Shown here in pieces: positions 39,905 through 45,780 of a DNA stretch of 56,995 bases; the first letter of the stretch is position 1, and each line of letters opens with the position of its first letter. The position numbers were made by a program, and so were the translations under genes. Below the pieces are notes generated by a model. It worked only from the letters and a program-made list of their open reading frames with translations, searched no databases and was not told where the DNA came from. The stretch is from an uncultured Methanosarcinales archaeon (lineage in GTDB: Archaea; Nanobdellota; Nanobdellia; Woesearchaeales; CG1-02-33-12), in contig CAZXME010000001.1 in assembly GCA_964641515.1 (NCBI GenBank), forward strand, positions 1-56,995, given 5' to 3'.

Positions 39905-40492
39905 ATGCCCAAGAAAATTAAAATAAAAAAAGTTGTTAAGAAAAAAGTGCAGATCAAGAAAAAGAAAAAAAAGGTTAAAGCAGTCTTAACAAGGGAAAGA
40001 GTACTAACAGAGAACACTGACGCTGCACATGAGTTATATAATCAAAGCAGGTTTGGAAGTATTTTAGAGGATGGCAAGGTCCAGTTGTCATTATTGGAAG
40101 CATTGTATTTGATGGACAAGGGTAAGATTTTAATAAAAGATTATAGGGAAAAAAAGGTTACTTTTGATGATTTTATAAAAAAAGCAAGAAGAGTTGAGCC
40201 TAATTTTTGGATAAGGTATTGTGTGTTTAAAGATATGAGAAATAGAGGTTATATAATAAAGACTGCACTTAAATTTGGCGCTGACTTCAGGGTTTATGAT
40301 CGGGGTGTAAAGCCAGGAGAAGACCATGCAAGATGGATTATTTATCCTGTTCATGAGGGCTCTGCTTTAACCTGGTATGAGTTTGCTGCTAAAAATAGGG
40401 TTGCCCATTCCACAAAAAAGCGTTTAATGATAGGCATAGTTGATAATGAAGGAGACGTAACCTATTATGAAATTAAGTGGATCAGGCCATAA
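39905..40492 (+). CDS. endA: tRNA-splicing endonuclease
   Basis: 195 aa. The C-terminal catalytic domain is RNRGYIIKTALKFGADFRVYDRG...HARWIIYPV...AHSTKKRLMIGIV. Confidence 0.85.
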   Translation: MPKKIKIKKVVKKKVQIKKKKKKVKAVLTRERVLTENTDAAHELYNQSRFGSILEDGKVQLSLLEALYLMDKGKILIKDYREKKVTFDDFIKKARRVEPNFWIRYCVFKDMRNRGYIIKTALKFGADFRVYDRGVKPGEDHARWIIYPVHEGSALTWYEFAAKNRVAHSTKKRLMIGIVDNEGDVTYYEIKWIRP

Positions 40493-40534
40493 TTAACAAC
40501 AAAATATATAAACTTATTCTGAGATGTTTTTTTT

Positions 40535-41455
40535 ATGGACAGCAAAGAGAGAGTCATACAAACAATAAGGATAAGGGGACCAGTTATACCTGCACAAATA
40601 GCAAAAGTAATTGGAACAGATATATTAATGGCTTCTGCAATGCTCTCAGAGCTTGTATCAAAAAATATTCTTAAAATTTCTCATGTCAAATTCGGAAGCA
40701 CTCCCCTTTATTACCTGCCAGGCCAGGAATCAAGATTACAGGATTTTGCAAAAAACCTTCATGAAAAGGAAAAAAGGGCTTATGATTTGTTAATGCAAAA
40801 AAAGATTCTAAGGGATAAAACATCAGAACCTGTTGTAAGAGTTGCTCTTAGAAATATAAAGGATTTTGCTGTTCCATTACAGGTAAAGATTAATGGTAAT
40901 GTAGAGGTATTCTGGAAATGGTATCTCATAAGCAATGAAGAAGCAGCAAAAATAATAAAAGAAACAATTAAATTTGATGAACCAAAAAAAGAGATTAAAC
41001 CTGTTCAGGAAGCAATTACCAGAAAAGAACAGGAAAAGCCAAAAGAAGAACAAAAGCAAATTAAGAAAGAAGAATTAAAAAGGGTAATACCAAGAGAAGA
41101 GATTAAGAATGAAGAAAAGAAAATATTTGTTGACAAAACAGCTGAAGATAAATTTTTAAGTGAAGTTAAAAGATTTTTTGAAAAAAGTAGTATTAACCTT
41201 ATAGAACAAAAAATAGTAAAAAAGAATTCAGATTTAGATCTTGTTATTGAAGTGCCAAGTGCTGTTGGTAGTTTAATATATTACTGCAAGGCAAGGAGTA
41301 AAAAAAGAATAAGTGATTCTGACTTGAGTTCTGCATTTGTTCAGGGTCAGCTAAAAAAACTTCCTGTTTTATTTTTAACAAAAGGTGAACTAACAAAAAA
41401 AGCAAATGATATGCTTTCAAAAGAATTCAAGAGCATAAAAATAAAAAAGATATAA
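40535..41455 (+). CDS. Hypothetical DNA-binding protein: two winged-helix-like domains, a Lys/Glu linker and a C-terminal Mrr-like PD-(D/E)xK domain (tentative)
   Basis: wHTH-like segment: RGPVIPAQIAKVIGTDILMASAMLSELVSKNILKIS. The C-terminal DLDLVIEVPSAVGSLIYYCKARSKKRISDSDL...VLFLTKGELTKKA fits a D...(D/E)-x-K nuclease-fold layout. Confidence 0.45.
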   Translation: MDSKERVIQTIRIRGPVIPAQIAKVIGTDILMASAMLSELVSKNILKISHVKFGSTPLYYLPGQESRLQDFAKNLHEKEKRAYDLLMQKKILRDKTSEPVVRVALRNIKDFAVPLQVKINGNVEVFWKWYLISNEEAAKIIKETIKFDEPKKEIKPVQEAITRKEQEKPKEEQKQIKKEELKRVIPREEIKNEEKKIFVDKTAEDKFLSEVKRFFEKSSINLIEQKIVKKNSDLDLVIEVPSAVGSLIYYCKARSKKRISDSDLSSAFVQGQLKKLPVLFLTKGELTKKANDMLSKEFKSIKIKKI

Positions 41456-41456
41456 A

Positions 41457-42488
41457 ATGGGAACACAGATAAAATGCTTGTTAAAAAGCAACGAAATATC
41501 TTTGAATGACCTAACAAACAAAACAATTGCTATTGATTCATATAACCTTCTTTACCAGTTTTTAACAACAATTCGCTCAAGGGATGGCTCTTTATTAATG
41601 GATTCAAAAGGTAATGTAACATCCCATCTTATTGGATTGTTCTCAAGAACAACAAGGCTCATGCAAAACAATATAAAATTGATTTTTGTTTTTGATGGTA
41701 AACCGCCAAAACTAAAAGAGATAGAAAGGCAGAGAAGAAAAGATATTAAGATACATGCAAAAAAAAAGTATGAAAAAGCTGTTGAAGAAGAAAATATAGA
41801 AGAAATGAAAAAATATGCCTCAAGGACAACAAGGCTTACAGAAGGTATAATTGATGAGTCAAAAAAACTTATTTCTGCTTTAGGGTTACCTATTGTGCAG
41901 GCACCTTCAGAAGGGGAGGCACAGGCAGCATACTTAGCTAAAAAAAGGGAGGCAGATTACTGTGTTTCACAGGATTTTGATTCATTGCTGTTTGGCTCGC
42001 CAATGCTTGTAAGAAACTTATCTTTGATTGGAAAAAGAAAAAAATCTGGGTTATCATACACAAATATAAAGCCAGAATTAATTAATTTATCAGAAAACCT
42101 TAATAATCTTGGCATTGACCAAAATCAGTTGATTGCCTTAGCAATGCTTGTTGGAACAGATTATAATATAGGGGGCATTAAAGGGATAGGTCCAAAAAAT
42201 GCCATAAAGCTTGTTAAAAAATATGGCTCTGACTTTGATGGCTTATTTAAAGACGTTAAATGGAATGAATTTTTTGATTATCCGTGGAAAAATGTTTATG
42301 ATTTGTTTAAGAATATACCTATTGAAAAAGAATACTTAATTGAATGGAAAGAACCCAATAAGGAAGAAGTTATTAATTTATTAGTTAATGAGCATGATTT
42401 TGCAATGGAAAGAGTTAAAACAGTTTTAGACAAGCTATTAAAGAACAAAGAAAACAAACAACAGAAAGGTTTAGGAGAATTTTTTTAA
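41457..42488 (+). CDS. fen: Flap endonuclease 1
   Basis: Motifs present: IAIDSYNLLYQFLTTIRSRDGSLLMDSKGNVTSHLIGLFSRT, FVFDGKPP, SEGEAQAAYL, DFDSLLFG, GTDYN. The C-terminal QQKGLGEFF is a PIP box. Confidence 0.93.
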   Translation: MGTQIKCLLKSNEISLNDLTNKTIAIDSYNLLYQFLTTIRSRDGSLLMDSKGNVTSHLIGLFSRTTRLMQNNIKLIFVFDGKPPKLKEIERQRRKDIKIHAKKKYEKAVEEENIEEMKKYASRTTRLTEGIIDESKKLISALGLPIVQAPSEGEAQAAYLAKKREADYCVSQDFDSLLFGSPMLVRNLSLIGKRKKSGLSYTNIKPELINLSENLNNLGIDQNQLIALAMLVGTDYNIGGIKGIGPKNAIKLVKKYGSDFDGLFKDVKWNEFFDYPWKNVYDLFKNIPIEKEYLIEWKEPNKEEVINLLVNEHDFAMERVKTVLDKLLKNKENKQQKGLGEFF

Positions 42489-42489
42489 G

Positions 42490-43353
42490 ATGGAATGGTA
42501 TTTCTTTGCAACATTAGCCGCATTATTAACAGCTGCATTTACAATTATTGAAAAGAAAACCCTGCTGAAAGAGCATGCAATGGAATTCTCAACTGTCCTG
42601 GCAATATTTAATTTTCTTATAGCTTTAGTTTTATTGCCATATATTAACTTTGATTTTCCTATAAAAACACTTGGCTTAATGTATTTAGCATCTGTTTTTG
42701 GATCAATTGCTTTTTTGTTTGTTGCAAAATCAGTAAGACATATGGATGTTTCAATAGTCAGCCCTCTAATGACTTTTAGCCCAGCAATTGTTGTTGTTCT
42801 TGCATTTTTTATTCTCGGAGAAAAAGTAACTTCATTGCAATTATCTGGAATATTATTATTAATAATTGGCTCTTATGTTTTGGAAGCAGAAAATCATGGA
42901 ACAAAAAAAATATTCACAAAAACATTTAAGTCAAATTACTTTTATTATATATTCCTTGCACTAATCTTATATGGATTTTGCTCTATATTTGATAAATTGA
43001 TTCTGAGAGCAGTTTCACCATTAACTTATATCCCAATAATCCAGTTTTTTATTGCAATAAATTTTATAATCTTAATTTGTATATTCCACAATGGTTTTGA
43101 TGGAATAAAACATGGAGTAAGAAGTGCAGGAAAATGGATATTTCTTGTTGCAATTTTAGTAACCAGCTCTAGGCTATTTTATGCACAGGCAGTCTCAATG
43201 ACTTATGTAAGCCTTGTAATCCCAATAAAGAGGATGTCAGCCTTCTTTGCAACAGTTGTTGGGGGGAAGGTATTTCATGAGAAAAATCTCACTCAAAGAG
43301 TTCTAGCTTGTGTGATTATGCTTGCGGGAGTATTTCTTGTTATTTTAGGATAA
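42490..43353 (+). CDS. EamA/DMT-family transporter
   Basis: 287 aa with about 10 TM helices in two EamA-like halves. Confidence 0.8.
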   Translation: MEWYFFATLAALLTAAFTIIEKKTLLKEHAMEFSTVLAIFNFLIALVLLPYINFDFPIKTLGLMYLASVFGSIAFLFVAKSVRHMDVSIVSPLMTFSPAIVVVLAFFILGEKVTSLQLSGILLLIIGSYVLEAENHGTKKIFTKTFKSNYFYYIFLALILYGFCSIFDKLILRAVSPLTYIPIIQFFIAINFIILICIFHNGFDGIKHGVRSAGKWIFLVAILVTSSRLFYAQAVSMTYVSLVIPIKRMSAFFATVVGGKVFHEKNLTQRVLACVIMLAGVFLVILG

Positions 43354-43384
43354 GTTTAAATATGGTTTAAGAATATTTCTTGTT

Positions 43385-45175
43385 ATGTTAACTATAAAAG
43401 TTCCCCTAAATAAAGCTGAGATATTGAAGAAATATTTATTGGATAATGGCCTTTTTAATAAAGAGTGTGAAATAATTAAAGATAAAATTTTCATTTATTT
43501 TCCAATCAATGAAAAAAAGGATTTAAAGAAAAAATTTCCTTTTACAGAATTTACTGAAAAGAAACTAAAGAAAACACACAAAATCACAATAGCAGATTTA
43601 TTGGAAGGTAAGCTAACAAAAAAAGAGTTAAGCCTTGTTCCATCTGCTTTTGATACTATTGGTAATATAATAATTCTTGAGATTAAGCAAGGTCTTGTAA
43701 AAAAAGAGAAGATAGTTGCAGAGGCATTGTTAAAACTAAACAAAAATATAAAGACTGTTTCTAAAAAGATAGGCATTCATGGTGGTGTTTTCAGGACGCA
43801 AAAACTAAAGATTTTAGCAGGGGAAAGAAAAAAACAAACAACCTACATTGAAAATGGTGTAAAAATAAGGCTTGATGTTGAAAAGGTTTATTTCTCTCCA
43901 AGGTTAAGCAATGAAAGAAAGAGGATAATGAAACTTGTAAAGCCAGGTGAATCAATACTTGTTATGTTTTCTGGCTGCGGGCCTTACCCTTTAGTATTAG
44001 CAAAGAACACAAAAGCAAAAGAAATTTATGGAGTTGAAATTAATCCTGTAGCCCATAAATATTCTCTTGAAAATATTAAACTAAATAAGATAAGTAATAT
44101 TTATTTTTATTGTGGGGATGTTAAAGATATTCTTCCAAAATTAGGCTTGGATAAGTTTGCCTTAAAATCGAGATGGGACAATAAACATCTTAAAGCTAAA
44201 TTAAAGCAAAATCCCTTCATGATTGAATTTTATACTCCTAAAGGAGATATTGAATCAGACAAAACAATTAAACAGATTGACAAAAGCATAAAAAAACTTG
44301 CAAAGAAACAAATAAAAGTAATGATACACATGCCCCTTAGATATAAAAATAAGGATGTTAGTCTTGCACAAAACCCTAACAATATTTCTGATGTAATTGA
44401 GTGCATGAGAAGAATAAATAAATTAAAAAAAGATAATAAAAATGTTATTGGGTATATTTTTCATCCTACTGAGGGTTATAACAATTCAGATAAATATAAA
44501 GAAAAATGGTTGCTGCAGAACTTAAAAAGGATTGAAAAAGAGGATTTATTAAATTCATTATATTTAGAAAACTGCGTAAATAAAGTTTTCAGCGAGAAAA
44601 AAAATATCTTATCTGTTATTAAAAAATCAAACTTAAAGCATATGTGTTTTGATTTTGCTCATTTTATGATTAAAAATAAGAAATTAATAATAAAAGATTA
44701 TAAGGATATAACCTCAAAAATAGATGTTTATAATCATATTAACAATCAGAGGGCTAATAGTGATGAGCATTCATGCGGGTTAAAGGAAGGAAATTTAGAT
44801 TTTAAGGAATTCGCTGAGTATATTAATAAAGGAACTATAGAAGTCTTTAGCAAAAGCGAAATAACAGCAAAAGAACAGATACAGGATTGGAAATACTTTA
44901 TTTCAATAAAGCCAAGAAAAAAATTTAACAGGATTATAATGCCCCTGCCAAAATCAGCAGGAGACTTTCTTGATTTGGCCTTAGGTTCAATAAAACCAAA
45001 TGGAACAATTCACTTTTATGATTTTCTGAAAGAAGACGAATTTGATAAGGCCAAGGAAAAGATAAAAAAGGCCTGCAAAAGAGCAAAAAAGAAATATAAG
45101 ATATTGAGAATTGTTAAATGCGGCCAGCACGCCCCTCATATCTTTAGGATATGTGTTGATTTTAAGGTAATTTAA
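43385..45175 (+). CDS. Trm5/Taw2-type tRNA methyltransferase interrupted by a ~255-aa EndoIV/xylose-isomerase-like TIM-barrel insertion
   Basis: Trm5 blocks lie on both sides: SAFDTIGNIIILEI, RLDVEKVYFSPRLSNER, ILVMFSGCGPYPLVLA, YGVEINP and YCGDVKD before the insertion; NRIIMPLPKSA and KCGQHAPHIFRICVDF after it. Between them are MIHMP, GYIFHP, LYLEN, CFDFAHF and NHINNQRANSDEHSCGLKEGNLDFKEF. Confidence 0.75.
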   Translation: MLTIKVPLNKAEILKKYLLDNGLFNKECEIIKDKIFIYFPINEKKDLKKKFPFTEFTEKKLKKTHKITIADLLEGKLTKKELSLVPSAFDTIGNIIILEIKQGLVKKEKIVAEALLKLNKNIKTVSKKIGIHGGVFRTQKLKILAGERKKQTTYIENGVKIRLDVEKVYFSPRLSNERKRIMKLVKPGESILVMFSGCGPYPLVLAKNTKAKEIYGVEINPVAHKYSLENIKLNKISNIYFYCGDVKDILPKLGLDKFALKSRWDNKHLKAKLKQNPFMIEFYTPKGDIESDKTIKQIDKSIKKLAKKQIKVMIHMPLRYKNKDVSLAQNPNNISDVIECMRRINKLKKDNKNVIGYIFHPTEGYNNSDKYKEKWLLQNLKRIEKEDLLNSLYLENCVNKVFSEKKNILSVIKKSNLKHMCFDFAHFMIKNKKLIIKDYKDITSKIDVYNHINNQRANSDEHSCGLKEGNLDFKEFAEYINKGTIEVFSKSEITAKEQIQDWKYFISIKPRKKFNRIIMPLPKSAGDFLDLALGSIKPNGTIHFYDFLKEDEFDKAKEKIKKACKRAKKKYKILRIVKCGQHAPHIFRICVDFKVI

Positions 45176-45181
45176 TTCTAA

Positions 45182-45547
45182 TTAGAAAATTCCACTAAGG
45201 GCTATTCCAAATAATGCAGCTATAAACCCAAAAATATACTTAAAGATAACTATGAATGCAAGCTGAAGTATCCAGACAAGAAAAGCCTTATGCCATTTAA
45301 GCCTGAAAACATCATGATATATCCATATAAGCAGAACAAATGCAATTAAAGCCCCCCATGTTTTAAAGAGATAGTTTACTACAGAAACAATTATTCCTGA
45401 TATAAATGTTATAATTGCTGTTTTAAATAGTGTTGTCCTCCCATTGAGCAGCCTTACAGCAAAATACAGGGGAAGTGCTGAAATTAAGAATATAATTATT
45501 AAAATAAGAAATGTAATCAATACAGCAGTTGTTAATATTCCTATCAT
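45182..45547 (-). CDS. Small integral membrane protein (4 TM)
   Basis: 121 aa and almost entirely hydrophobic. Its start overlaps the upstream gene stop (ATGA-type overlap). Confidence 0.5.
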   Translation of the reverse strand: MIGILTTAVLITFLILIIIFLISALPLYFAVRLLNGRTTLFKTAIITFISGIIVSVVNYLFKTWGALIAFVLLIWIYHDVFRLKWHKAFLVWILQLAFIVIFKYIFGFIAALFGIALSGIF

Positions 45548-45780
45548 TTTTCAGTTTGACTATTATCTTGCTTTTTCTCCTTTGTTTCACTGACACCTAA
45601 AGTAAATAGAATAAATGATGATAATATAAGAATTACTCCAGCAAAATATCCTTGTGCAGAAGGTGATGTTGAAACCCCAATAACTGCCCCAGTTATATTT
45701 GCCTGGGAATTAATTAAAAATGATAACCCTACAACTAAAAAAACTATACTCAACATTATATAAGGCCTTTTCTTTTTCAT
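45544..45780 (-). CDS. Small membrane protein (2 TM)
   Basis: 78 aa with two hydrophobic helices. It is translationally coupled to the next gene. Confidence 0.5.
   Translation of the reverse strand: MKKKRPYIMLSIVFLVVGLSFLINSQANITGAVIGVSTSPSAQGYFAGVILILSSFILFTLGVSETKEKKQDNSQTEK

What the first reader, a model, noticed from the sequence alone, without database searches (positions are those of the whole stretch)
44150..44920. Trm5/Taw2-type tRNA methyltransferase carries an in-frame EndoIV/xylose-isomerase-like TIM-barrel inside its catalytic domain
In canonical Trm5 about 10 residues separate the strand ending in the acidic D (here YCGDVKD) from the N/D-R-I-[IL]-M-x-x-P motif (here NRIIMPLPKSA). 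Here about 255 residues intervene (aa ~256-512). They contain, in order, MIHMP, GYIFHP, LYLEN, CFDFAHF and NHINNQRANSDEHSCGLKEGNLDFKEF. This is the characteristic metal-ligand block order of AP-endonuclease-2 / sugar-phosphate isomerase TIM barrels. Both Trm5 halves look intact, and there are no intein junction residues. A methyltransferase with a nested hydrolase/isomerase-type barrel is not an architecture I know of. It could couple m1G37/wyosine-type modification with a second chemistry on tRNA or on a sugar-nucleotide substrate.
Basis: partly seen in the sequence, partly recalled or inferred. Interest (0 to 1): 0.7.

Follow-up and report, generated by a model that had tools for sequence, protein, structure and literature searches.

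The report
Nuclease-like barrel nested inside tRNA methyltransferase
A DPANN archaeon's essential tRNA methyltransferase (Trm5b) carries a complete, selectively maintained endonuclease-IV-like metal-enzyme barrel spliced into a loop of its catalytic domain, an apparently undescribed but widespread two-in-one protein whose second activity is unknown.

Summary
ORF 43385..45175 (+, 596 aa) is a complete archaeal Trm5b-type tRNA m1G37 methyltransferase. A 258-aa (beta/alpha)8 barrel (aa 254-511, nt 44144-44917) sits between residues that are adjacent in solved Trm5 structures. AlphaFold2 models both folds confidently (pLDDT 93.5).

It is not a mis-assembly. More than 100 protein clusters and 33 of 80 GTDB Woesearchaeota/Nanoarchaeota loci carry it at the same site.

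The barrel belongs to the AP-endonuclease-2 superfamily. Its profile matches endonuclease IV best, and it keeps the Endo IV-type His/Glu/Asp metal ligands invariant. It fails the nfo and CbiR family thresholds, so it belongs to an uncharacterised clade that also has free-living members in bacteria, phages and archaea.

The insert co-diverges with its host and is under purifying selection as strong as that on the methyltransferase. It has been lost cleanly in some close relatives, including a syntenic ortholog. No methyltransferase residue distinguishes insert-bearing from insert-less forms.

Best reading: a functional Trm5b hosting an autonomous metal-dependent phosphoesterase, probably nucleic-acid-directed. 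Coupling to tRNA is neither shown nor excluded. It is a new architecture built from known parts.

The parts
43385..45175 (+). Whole gene: Trm5b with nested barrel, 596 aa plus stop codon
   Evidence: ORF list. An identical protein and a 98%-identical protein are in public collections.
43391..43516 (+). Trm5 D1 domain (Trm5_N, aa 3-44)
   Evidence: Pfam PF18093, E=8e-7, 29.2 bits against a cutoff of 22.7.
43589..43828 (+). Trm5 D2 domain (TYW2_N_2, aa 69-148). It includes R137, which aligns with M. jannaschii Trm5 R145.
   Evidence: Pfam PF25133, E=1.1e-18. Residue mapping. R137 is invariant.
43838..44143 (+). N-terminal part of the class-I methyltransferase domain (aa 152-253). It holds YFSPRLSNERKRI, the SAM motif LVMFSGCGPY, E218 (aligns with Mj D223) and D245 (aligns with Mj D251).
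   Evidence: Pfam PF02475, 159.8 bits in two stretches. PDB alignments. Conservation.
44144..44917 (+). Nested Endo IV-like (beta/alpha)8 barrel, aa 254-511 (258 aa)
   Evidence: Boundaries come from the insert-less syntenic ortholog L005. Profile against PDB gives Endo IV as best match. AF2 gives pLDDT 95.1. Foldseek places it among AP_endonuc_2 superfamily barrels.
44162..44233 (+). Clade-specific invariant residues K261 (beta1, motif GLKS) and E281 (beta2, motif IEF). Neither corresponds to an Endo IV metal ligand.
   Evidence: Both are invariant in 110 nested homologs and in every aligned stand-alone relative.
44321..44335 (+). MIHMP motif. H315 aligns with Endo IV H69; P317 is invariant.
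44450..44467 (+). GYIFHP motif. H360 aligns with Endo IV H109.
   Evidence: His in 108 of 110 homologs. Alignments.
44558..44572 (+). LYLEN motif. E395 aligns with Endo IV E145, the ligand that bridges two metals.
   Evidence: Invariant. Alignments.
44645..44665 (+). CFDFAHF motif. D423 and H426 align with Endo IV D179 and H182.
   Evidence: Invariant. Alignments.
44732..44803 (+). NHINN...SDEHSCGLKEGNLDF. H451 aligns with Endo IV H216. E461/H462 fall in the D229/H231 region with a one-residue register shift. G469 is conserved.
   Evidence: H451 is invariant. H462 is His in 87 of 110 and Asp/Glu in 16 more. Register shift seen.
44831..44851 (+). GTIEVFS motif. E486 is the presumed equivalent of Endo IV E261.
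   Evidence: Invariant in nested forms and in all aligned stand-alone forms. The equivalence is inferred from position in the last strand and was not covered by the hhalign alignment.
44918..45172 (+). C-terminal part of the methyltransferase domain (aa 512-596), with the catalytic loop NRIIMPLPK. P522 aligns with Mj Trm5 P267.
   Evidence: PDB alignments. M519, P520 and P522 are invariant.

Best explanation
The gene encodes one polypeptide with two complete enzymes, one folded inside the other. The host is an archaeal Trm5b-type SAM-dependent tRNA (guanine37-N1) methyltransferase with D1, D2 and D3 domains. The guest is a roughly 258-aa (beta/alpha)8 barrel from an uncharacterised clade of the AP-endonuclease-2 superfamily. 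It is inserted in the short surface connection between the strand ending in the adenine-binding Asp (D245) and the strand leading into the catalytic MPLPK loop.

Shown here: both folds are complete, and all characterised Trm5 catalytic positions are conserved. The barrel keeps an Endo IV-type His-rich metal site (H315, H360, E395, D423, H426, H451, E486, and usually H462). The insert was inherited vertically with its host across a Woesearchaeota/Nanoarchaeota clade, is under purifying selection as strong as the host's, and was lost cleanly in some lineages.

Inferred: a free-living barrel gene was captured once into a permissive loop. A barrel's N and C termini lie close together, so it can be spliced into a loop without breaking the host. 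The methyltransferase still makes m1G37. The barrel is an autonomous two- or three-metal phosphoesterase that hydrolyses a sugar-phosphate ester bond, most probably in nucleic acid (AP-site incision or 3'-end cleaning, as in Endo IV). The two active sites work independently. The nested arrangement persists because it cannot be separated without destroying an essential gene, so the only outcomes are retention or exact deletion.
For: Architecture: the Trm5 match is split across adjacent residues of solved structures, and the insert-deleted sequence aligns as a single stretch. The full-length AF2 model has pLDDT 93.5 and pTM 0.81. Foldseek gives target-normalised TM 0.79-0.81 to Trm5a/Trm5b, including tRNA complexes.

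Methyltransferase intact: R137, Y169, E177, E218, D245 and P522 align with Mj Trm5 R145, Y177, E185, D223, D251 and P267. They are invariant or nearly so in both insert-bearing and insert-less proteins. None of about 78 GTDB genomes has both forms, so the nested gene appears to be the only close Trm5b in its genome.

Barrel identity: the best profile matches to PDB are Endo IV (5zhz 4.5e-8; 2x7v and 4hno about 4e-3) and Apn1. Ligands are invariant in 110 homologs and in 86 stand-alone relatives. There are weak NCBIfam hits to CbiR and nfo only. CbiR shows that this superfamily includes non-DNA phosphodiesterases (PMC7733943).

Maintained function: dN/dS of the insert is 0.13-0.17 against 0.12-0.16 for the methyltransferase in pairs with dS<1.

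Vertical history: Mantel r=0.71, p<=0.001. Thirty insert types need 34 changes on the methyltransferase tree (minimum 29, null about 99).

Modularity: free-living relatives cover the insert end to end. Insert-less L005/P0029 is 85.5% identical to insert-bearing P0014 and sits in the identical gene order. L049 is 83% identical to insert-bearing P0037. No methyltransferase position discriminates the two forms.

Nucleic-acid leaning: phage-borne relatives sit among DNA methyltransferases and thymidine kinase or between DHFR and ThyA.
Against: No activity has been measured for either domain. The barrel fails the curated thresholds for nfo and CbiR, and fold search does not separate Endo IV from sugar epimerases and isomerases, so the phosphoesterase chemistry rests on the ligand signature alone. 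The third-metal ligands (Endo IV D229/H231) are shifted by one residue and variable. The Endo IV DNA-intercalating residues (R37, Y72, L73; recalled from the literature) have no obvious sequence counterpart. Some relatives occur in sugar contexts: a NeuB-SAF-barrel fusion and an aminosugar cluster. Retention of a nested domain over such divergence could also reflect a coupled function.
Confidence: 0.55

Rival explanations
1. Coupled tRNA enzyme. The barrel is an RNA phosphoesterase or nuclease that Trm5's tRNA-binding domains deliver to the anticodon loop. One possibility is processing the 2',3'-cyclic or 3'-phosphate left on nucleotide 37 when the canonical 37/38 intron is cut out. Others are healing or cutting anticodon-loop breaks, or incising damaged or abasic tRNA.
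For: The domain has stayed physically locked into a G37-specific tRNA enzyme across deep divergence with its catalytic residues invariant. Linkers are short and confidently modelled, and the overall pTM is 0.81. A tRNA-intron endonuclease gene lies three genes upstream in the window and in relatives. That the canonical archaeal tRNA intron lies between positions 37 and 38 is established knowledge. Endo IV-type enzymes have 3'-phosphatase/diesterase activity (established knowledge).
Against: No methyltransferase residue differs systematically between insert-bearing and insert-less forms. Close relatives lost the insert cleanly and keep the same gene neighbourhood, EndA included. Free-living relatives are not linked to tRNA genes. 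By class-I methyltransferase and TIM-barrel topology, the insertion point lies on the side of the sheet away from the SAM/G37 pocket and the barrel's active face points away from its termini; this is an inference and was not measured. No Endo IV-family enzyme acting on tRNA is known to me.
Confidence: 0.15
2. Small-molecule sugar enzyme. The barrel acts on a sugar, sugar-phosphate or nucleotide-sugar, either as a phosphodiesterase or phosphatase or as an isomerase or epimerase. It has nothing to do with nucleic acid and is only a passenger in trm5.
For: Most of the AP_endonuc_2 superfamily consists of sugar isomerases, epimerases and dehydratases, and these are among the top fold matches (Art22, UlaE, psicose/tagatose epimerases, AsbF). 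A relative with the same motifs is fused to NeuB+SAF nonulosonic-acid synthase. Stand-alone P0156 lies between a DegT aminotransferase and a class-III aminotransferase, next to an NDP-sugar epimerase/dehydratase. P0126 lies beside a GFO/IDH/MocA oxidoreductase. CbiR cleaves a ribose-phosphate linkage in a cofactor.
Against: The best sequence-profile matches are Endo IV and Apn1, not isomerases. The two extra His residues of the Endo IV first metal site (H315, H360) are invariant or nearly so; that sugar epimerases use only an E-D-H-E site is from my own knowledge. Phage relatives sit in DNA-methylase and nucleotide-metabolism modules. No sugar-pathway genes flank the window gene.
Confidence: 0.2
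3. Selfish or removable element. The insert is an intein, a homing-type nuclease cassette, or an EndA-spliced bulge-helix-bulge intron, and is removed from the mRNA or protein or spreads between trm5 alleles.
For: It shows presence/absence polymorphism at one exact site of a conserved essential gene among close relatives, which resembles intein and homing-element distributions. An EndA gene is nearby.
Against: There is no Cys/Ser/Thr at the insert start and no His-Asn plus nucleophile at its end. The junctions do not pair better than shuffled sequence (z=-0.36). The insert phylogeny tracks the host almost perfectly. Catalytic residues are invariant in all 110 copies and dN/dS is about 0.15, with no degenerate copies. 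AF2 folds it as an integral nested domain.
Confidence: 0.03
4. Artefact or non-catalytic filler. Either a mis-assembly joined two genes, or the barrel is a degenerate structural domain.
For: The window's own insert does not reach the Pfam PF01261 threshold.
Against: The same architecture appears in more than 100 clusters from NCBI, JGI, ENA and Logan assemblies, including a complete 1.84-Mb chromosome and a 1-Mb contig. Homologs pass the PF01261 threshold. Metal ligands are invariant and under purifying selection.
Confidence: 0.04

Closest known systems
Archaeal Trm5b / Trm5 (P. abyssi Trm5b, PDB 5yac; M. jannaschii Trm5, PDB 2zzn/2yx1)
   Same: It has the same three-domain layout (D1, D2 and the class-I methyltransferase D3). 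The SAM-binding and catalytic positions are conserved. The insert-deleted sequence aligns end to end (E=2e-55 to 5yac). Target-normalised TM is 0.79-0.81.
   Different: It carries a 258-aa barrel between the equivalents of Mj V255 and D256. The catalytic loop reads MPLPK rather than MNLPK, a change also seen in the insert-less Woesearchaeota relatives. It scores far below the NCBIfam Trm5b equivalog cutoff (233 vs 600 bits).
Endonuclease IV (Nfo/End/Apn1; PDB 5zhz, 2x7v, 1xp3)
   Same: It has the TIM-barrel fold and the same order of metal-ligand motifs (H, H, E, DxxH, H, [D/E]H, E), seven of which are conserved unambiguously. Endo IV is the best profile-to-PDB match.
   Different: The window insert gives no hit to the nfo models, and its stand-alone relatives score only 21-35 bits against a cutoff of 129.65. 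The third-site ligands are shifted and variable. The loop following beta2 is shorter, and R37/Y72/L73 have no evident counterparts. It has extra clade-specific invariant Lys (beta1) and Glu (beta2). Here it is nested in another enzyme.
CbiR cobamide-remodelling phosphodiesterase (NF041277; Mok et al. 2020, PMC7733943)
   Same: It belongs to the same superfamily and has similar His/Asp/Glu conservation. CbiR is the top NCBIfam hit for the insert (E=3e-7), and it is a precedent for non-DNA phosphodiester hydrolysis.
   Different: The score is 30 bits against a cutoff of 105. There are no cobamide genes nearby. CbiR is a free-standing bacterial protein.
Free-living members of the same uncharacterised barrel clade (e.g. 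P0126, P0141, P0148, P0156, P0172) and the NeuB-SAF-barrel fusion (P0242)
   Same: They share the same K-E-H-P-H-EN-DxxH-HxxD-G-E signature and match the insert profile end to end, with E values from 1e-68 to 1e-20 for the stand-alone proteins; the NeuB fusion is a more distant partial match (E=6e-13).
   Different: They are stand-alone 245-290-aa proteins, or C-terminal fusions, found in bacteria, phages and archaea in varied contexts. None has been characterised.

Membership tests
Trm5 family (Pfam PF02475 TRM5/TYW2 methyltransferase; archaeal Trm5b type) | Pfam domain set Trm5_N + TYW2_N_2 + TRM5-TYW2_MTfase, each above its gathering threshold | tested here: met
   Scores are 29.2 vs 22.7, 67.5 vs 27.7 and 159.8 vs 28 bits.
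Trm5 family (Pfam PF02475 TRM5/TYW2 methyltransferase; archaeal Trm5b type) | Conserved functional residues equivalent to Mj Trm5 R145, E185, D223, D251 and P267 (their roles are recalled from the Trm5 structural and mechanistic literature) | tested here: met
   The equivalents are R137, E177, E218 (Asp to Glu), D245 and P522, read from the 2yx1_A alignment. They are invariant or at least 90% conserved.
Trm5 family (Pfam PF02475 TRM5/TYW2 methyltransferase; archaeal Trm5b type) | NLPK catalytic loop | tested here: inconclusive
   The loop reads MPLPK, with Pro in place of Asn. The same variant occurs in the insert-less relatives, and P. abyssi Trm5a has SPTPK.
Trm5 family (Pfam PF02475 TRM5/TYW2 methyltransferase; archaeal Trm5b type) | NCBIfam Trm5b equivalog cutoff (NF047730, 600 bits) | tested here: not met
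   The score is 233 bits. Trm5b is the best model, ahead of Taw22 at 203 bits. The equivalog call is therefore not supported; the family call is.
Trm5 family (Pfam PF02475 TRM5/TYW2 methyltransferase; archaeal Trm5b type) | m1G37 methyltransferase activity on tRNA | not testable with these tools
   This needs a biochemical assay.
AP_endonuc_2 / xylose-isomerase-like TIM barrel superfamily (Pfam PF01261) | Pfam gathering threshold (31.1 bits) | tested here: inconclusive
   The window's own insert gives no PF01261 hit at E<=1. Nested homologs do pass (P0036 at 36.7 bits; many precomputed hits), and so do most stand-alone relatives tested.
AP_endonuc_2 / xylose-isomerase-like TIM barrel superfamily (Pfam PF01261) | (beta/alpha)8 barrel fold similar to solved members | tested here: met
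   The AF2 insert model has pLDDT 95.1. The top 30 or so Foldseek hits are nearly all superfamily members, with TM 0.6-0.7.
Endonuclease IV (nfo, TIGR00587 / PRK01060) | Curated family score cutoff | tested here: not met
   The insert has no nfo-model hit at E<=1. Stand-alone relatives score 21-35 bits against 129.65.
Endonuclease IV (nfo, TIGR00587 / PRK01060) | Nine metal ligands H69, H109, E145, D179, H182, H216, D229, H231 and E261 (E. coli numbering, recalled from Hosfield et al. 1999) | tested here: inconclusive
   Seven are matched and invariant or nearly so: H315, H360, E395, D423, H426, H451 and E486. The D229/H231 pair corresponds to E461/H462 with a one-residue shift, and His is present in only 87 of 110. 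The E. coli sequence used was recalled from memory.
Endonuclease IV (nfo, TIGR00587 / PRK01060) | AP-site incision or 3'-diesterase activity on DNA | not testable with these tools
   This needs an enzyme assay.
CbiR (NF041277) | Curated cutoff of 105 bits and adjacency to cobamide biosynthesis genes | tested here: not met
   The score is 30.2 bits. No cobamide genes are among the ten neighbouring genes annotated.
Intein | N-terminal Cys/Ser/Thr, and C-terminal His-Asn followed by Cys/Ser/Thr | tested here: not met
   The insert begins with Gly-Leu-Asp, ends with Lys-Pro-Arg, and is followed by Lys.
Archaeal bulge-helix-bulge intron | Junction sequences that pair into a helix-bulge-helix recognised by EndA | tested here: not met
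   The cofold energy of the two junction segments is -19.6 kcal/mol against a shuffle mean of -18.5 (z=-0.36). In addition, the insert is in frame and under purifying selection.

The most novel reading that the evidence does not exclude
The barrel is a Trm5-tethered RNA phosphoesterase that acts on the anticodon loop of the same tRNAs that Trm5 methylates. For example, it could open or remove the 2',3'-cyclic or 3'-phosphate on nucleotide 37 at the canonical 37/38 splice junction, or repair or incise broken or abasic anticodon loops. That would be the first Endo IV-family enzyme working on tRNA, and a new physical link between tRNA splicing or repair and G37 modification in DPANN archaea.
Probability: 0.13. 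Interest if true: 0.85.

Novelty: new variant of a known kind. Interest (0 to 1): 0.55.

Why it matters
If the reading is right, an essential, near-universal tRNA modification enzyme tolerates a whole second enzyme folded into its catalytic domain, and has done so across a large group of DPANN archaea. That makes it a natural example of domain insertion (a TIM barrel inside a Rossmann fold) with built-in controls: orthologs that lost the insert exactly. It also flags an uncharacterised clade of the Endo IV/CbiR superfamily that is present in archaea, bacteria and large phages, has a complete His-rich metal site plus clade-specific invariant Lys and Glu, and has no known substrate. For genome annotation, these genes are currently labelled hypothetical, 'TIM barrel protein' or plain Trm5, so the second activity is missed. 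If the barrel turns out to act on tRNA, the finding would link anticodon-loop processing or repair to m1G37 formation.

Tried and rejected
1. Mis-assembly was rejected. The architecture recurs in more than 100 clusters and in 33 GTDB loci from independent projects.

2. An intein was rejected, because the junction residues are absent.

3. An EndA-spliced BHB intron was rejected, because the junctions pair no better than shuffled sequence.

4. A cassette moving between alleles was rejected, because insert types track the methyltransferase tree.

5. My first large methyltransferase tree used `hmmalign --trim`, which truncated the nested sequences and gave wrong distances (detected). I discarded it and redid the analysis with MAFFT and removal of the insert columns.

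6. Fold search could not assign a subfamily. Endo IV, UVDE, epimerases and isomerases all score TM 0.6-0.7.

7. phmmer of the single insert sequence against PDB found nothing; a profile was needed.

8. The GTDB scan with the insert-only alignment failed for lack of a conserved 7-10-residue block, so I used the full-length alignment instead.

9. The metagenome scan for stand-alone relatives returned only one bacterial ortholog group, and the viral scan returned one locus. A neighbourhood-enrichment analysis was therefore not possible.

10. A search for methyltransferase residues specific to insert-bearing forms found none.

11. There is no second trm5, no stand-alone barrel and no tRNA gene in the 57-kb window.

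12. Seven literature searches found no description of the architecture.

13. I could not obtain model coordinates, so the distance and orientation between the two active sites were not measured.
Full report
**1. The observation**

ORF 43385..45175 on the + strand encodes a 596-aa protein.

Pfam finds Trm5_N (aa 3-44), TYW2_N_2 (aa 69-148) and a TRM5/TYW2 methyltransferase domain split into two stretches. phmmer against PDB aligns residues 2-250 to P. abyssi Trm5b residues 19-259, and residues 513-595 to residues 261-344. About 260 residues are therefore interposed between adjacent residues of a canonical Trm5. With the insert deleted in silico, the protein aligns as one uninterrupted stretch to Trm5b (E=2e-55), Trm5a and M. 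jannaschii Trm5.

**2. Not an artefact**

A search of 5.8 billion proteins returned more than 100 clusters of 514-611 aa with the same layout, at 39-100% identity. They come from NCBI, JGI, ENA and Logan assemblies of Woesearchaeota/Nanoarchaeota MAGs, and many carry a precomputed PF01261 hit. A scan of GTDB species representatives kept 80 loci, all from this archaeal group. Of these, 33 carry the long gene, including a complete 1.84-Mb chromosome, and about 47 carry a short gene of roughly 1.0 kb without the insert. No genome in that set has both forms.

**3. The host enzyme**

Reading the alignment to M. jannaschii Trm5 (2yx1_A) gives these equivalences: R137=R145, Y169=Y177, E177=E185, E218=D223, D245=D251 and P522=P267. 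The insertion falls between Mj V255 and D256. The functional roles of those Mj residues are from my own knowledge of the Trm5 literature. All are invariant or at least 90% conserved in both insert-bearing and insert-less proteins.

AlphaFold2 models the full protein with mean pLDDT 93.5 and pTM 0.81, with no disordered segment. Foldseek returns Trm5a, Trm5b and aTrm5 as top hits, including tRNA complexes, with target-normalised TM up to 0.81. The Rossmann fold therefore closes around the insert.

The best family models are Trm5b, followed by Taw22, but both score far below the equivalog cutoffs. I call it a Trm5-family, Trm5b-like enzyme.

**4. The guest domain**

The window's own insert is too divergent for Pfam PF01261 and gives only a weak CbiR hit (E=3e-7). 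A 34-sequence profile of the insert (A3) matches solved endonuclease IV structures best: M. tuberculosis End 5zhz at E=4.5e-8, Thermotoga Endo IV at about 4e-3, then Apn1. The correspondence is motif for motif: HxP with HAPY, ylEN with YLEN, CiDlaH with CLDTCH, FHiaDs with VHCNDS, and ehslelgkGkid with DRHANLGSGQID.

hhalign to E. coli Nfo (sequence recalled from memory; probability 56.6%, E=1e-4) maps H315=H69, H360=H109, E395=E145, D423=D179, H426=H182 and H451=H216. E461-H462 lands on the D229-R230-H231 region, one residue out of register.

Across 110 nested homologs, K261, E281, H315, P317, E395, D423, H426, H451 and E486 are invariant. H360 is His in 108 of 110. H462 is His in 87 and Asp/Glu in 16 more.

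The insert alone folds as an eight-stranded barrel (pLDDT 95.1, pTM 0.92). Foldseek places it in the xylose-isomerase-like/AP-endonuclease-2 superfamily with TM 0.6-0.7. It does not distinguish Endo IV and UVDE from the epimerases and isomerases.

So superfamily membership is firm. The Endo IV-like metal site is supported by sequence. Membership of the nfo family or the CbiR family proper fails the curated thresholds.

**5. Free-living relatives**

An exhaustive profile search of 1.84 billion representatives found 1057 hits, 76 of them below 1e-30. They include many 245-290-aa stand-alone proteins that cover the insert profile end to end, starting at the IGLKS strand. Eighty-six of these keep the same signature, including the clade-specific Lys and Glu.

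Their contexts are heterogeneous:
- a bacterial aminosugar-type cluster;
- a position between DHFR and ThyA on a phage-like contig;
- a block of DNA methyltransferases plus thymidine kinase on a 140-kb viral contig;
- positions beside HisRS and a PilT-like ATPase, a GFO-family oxidoreductase, or CTP synthase and an SRAP protein.

A NeuB-SAF-barrel fusion carries the same motifs. None of these proteins is characterised. CbiR shows that the superfamily includes phosphodiesterases acting on non-DNA ribose-phosphate linkages (PMC7733943).

**6. History**

Pairwise identities of insert and host co-vary (Mantel r=0.71, p<=0.001). Thirty insert types need 34 changes on the methyltransferase tree, against a minimum of 29 and a label-shuffle mean of about 99. 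The insert has therefore been inherited vertically from one old insertion.

It diverges faster than the host: mean pairwise identity is 35% against 61%. Even so, its dN/dS of 0.13-0.17 equals that of the methyltransferase, 0.12-0.16, in pairs with dS<1.

Insert-less proteins nest inside insert-bearing clades. L005/P0029 is 85.5% identical to insert-bearing P0014 and lies in the same gene order as the window: EndA, an unknown gene, FEN1, EamA, trm5, then two small minus-strand ORFs. L049 is 83% identical to insert-bearing P0037. On the NJ tree, presence/absence needs about 21 changes (null 47). Deep nodes are poorly resolved, so I rely only on the two shallow cases as robust clean losses.

At the junction, the window reads LPKL-[258 aa]-KKFNRIIMPLP, and the ortholog reads IPKI-N-KKFDRVLMPLP. 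An earlier tree was flawed by alignment trimming and was discarded.

**7. Coupled or independent?**

No methyltransferase position distinguishes insert-bearing from insert-less proteins at a 70%/30% criterion. Free-living relatives exist, and the insert can be lost without changes elsewhere in the locus.

By the topology of class-I methyltransferases, the connection from the strand after motif III to the motif IV strand lies on the side of the sheet away from the SAM/G37 pocket. A TIM barrel's termini lie opposite its catalytic face. This is an inference; I had no access to the model coordinates.

These points favour two autonomous activities locked together because they cannot be separated without breaking an essential gene. 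The alternative is that Trm5 delivers the barrel to the anticodon loop. This is attractive because the canonical intron junction is 37/38 and EndA is encoded three genes upstream. It has no direct support.

**8. Rivals rejected**

- Intein: no junction residues.
- BHB intron: z=-0.36.
- Mis-assembly: see section 2.
- Non-catalytic filler: ligands are invariant and under purifying selection.

**9. Novelty and verdict**

Seven full-text searches found no paper describing a Trm5 with a nested TIM barrel, or an Endo IV-like domain in Woesearchaeota. Public annotations call these proteins hypothetical, 'TIM barrel protein' or Trm5.

Both parts belong to known superfamilies, so I rate this as a new variant of a known kind: a new nested architecture, with the guest drawn from an uncharacterised clade. 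Interest is moderate to high for tRNA-modification and DPANN specialists. It is limited by the unknown second activity and by evidence that leans towards independence.

Noticed in passing
window 39905-45780; L001 6595-11602; L005 996-6110: The gene order tRNA-intron endonuclease (EndA), unknown ~300-aa protein with no Pfam hit, FEN1, EamA transporter, trm5 is conserved between the window and relatives whose Trm5 is 60-74% identical to the window protein. The two small overlapping minus-strand membrane-like ORFs downstream of trm5 (121 and 78 aa in the window) recur in L005 only. The unknown protein (window 40535-41455) is conserved and uncharacterised.
   Followed up: partly
L096 466-7781 (IMGVR_UViG_3300027653_000769, 140 kb): On a large viral contig, a stand-alone member of the barrel clade sits inside a run of genes: N6/N4 DNA methyltransferase, thymidine kinase, a 585-aa C5-cytosine DNA methyltransferase, the barrel, then two more N6/N4 methyltransferases. 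This is a second, independent association of the barrel with nucleic-acid methyltransferases.
   Followed up: partly
L003 7386-11410: On a phage-like contig, another stand-alone barrel lies between dihydrofolate reductase and thymidylate synthase. ThiF-like and JAB-like genes lie upstream.
   Followed up: no
proteins P0242 (610 aa) and P0250: NeuB (nonulosonic-acid synthase) + SAF + C-terminal barrel fusion carrying the same motif signature as the Trm5 insert. It hints that some clade members act in sugar or nucleotide-sugar pathways.
   Followed up: partly
L002 4626-11387: Stand-alone barrel P0156 lies in a bacterial contig, in the gene order SAM methyltransferase, NDP-sugar epimerase/dehydratase, DegT aminotransferase, barrel, class-III aminotransferase, M24 peptidase.
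   Followed up: no
L053 6280-7038: An insert-less trm5 locus has a different His-rich AP_endonuc_2 barrel ORF (CbiR/Endo IV-like) 1.2 kb downstream on the same strand. It matches the insert profile only weakly (E=1.8e-8).
   Followed up: no
proteins P0024-P0027, P0030, P0039, P0047 and others (about 88% coverage): Many insert-bearing homologs (~515-555 aa) lack the N-terminal D1 (Trm5_N) domain. D1 presence therefore varies independently of the barrel.
   Followed up: no
window 1-56995: ARAGORN found no tRNA gene anywhere in the 57-kb window. GC content is 22-35%, with a minimum of about 22% at 52-53 kb.
   Followed up: no
record titles; P0105: Many MAGs that carry this Woesearchaeota-type gene are titled 'uncultured Methanosarcinales archaeon' (binchicken assemblies), and one protein is labelled Alphaproteobacteria. 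These look like mislabelled or mis-binned records.
   Followed up: no
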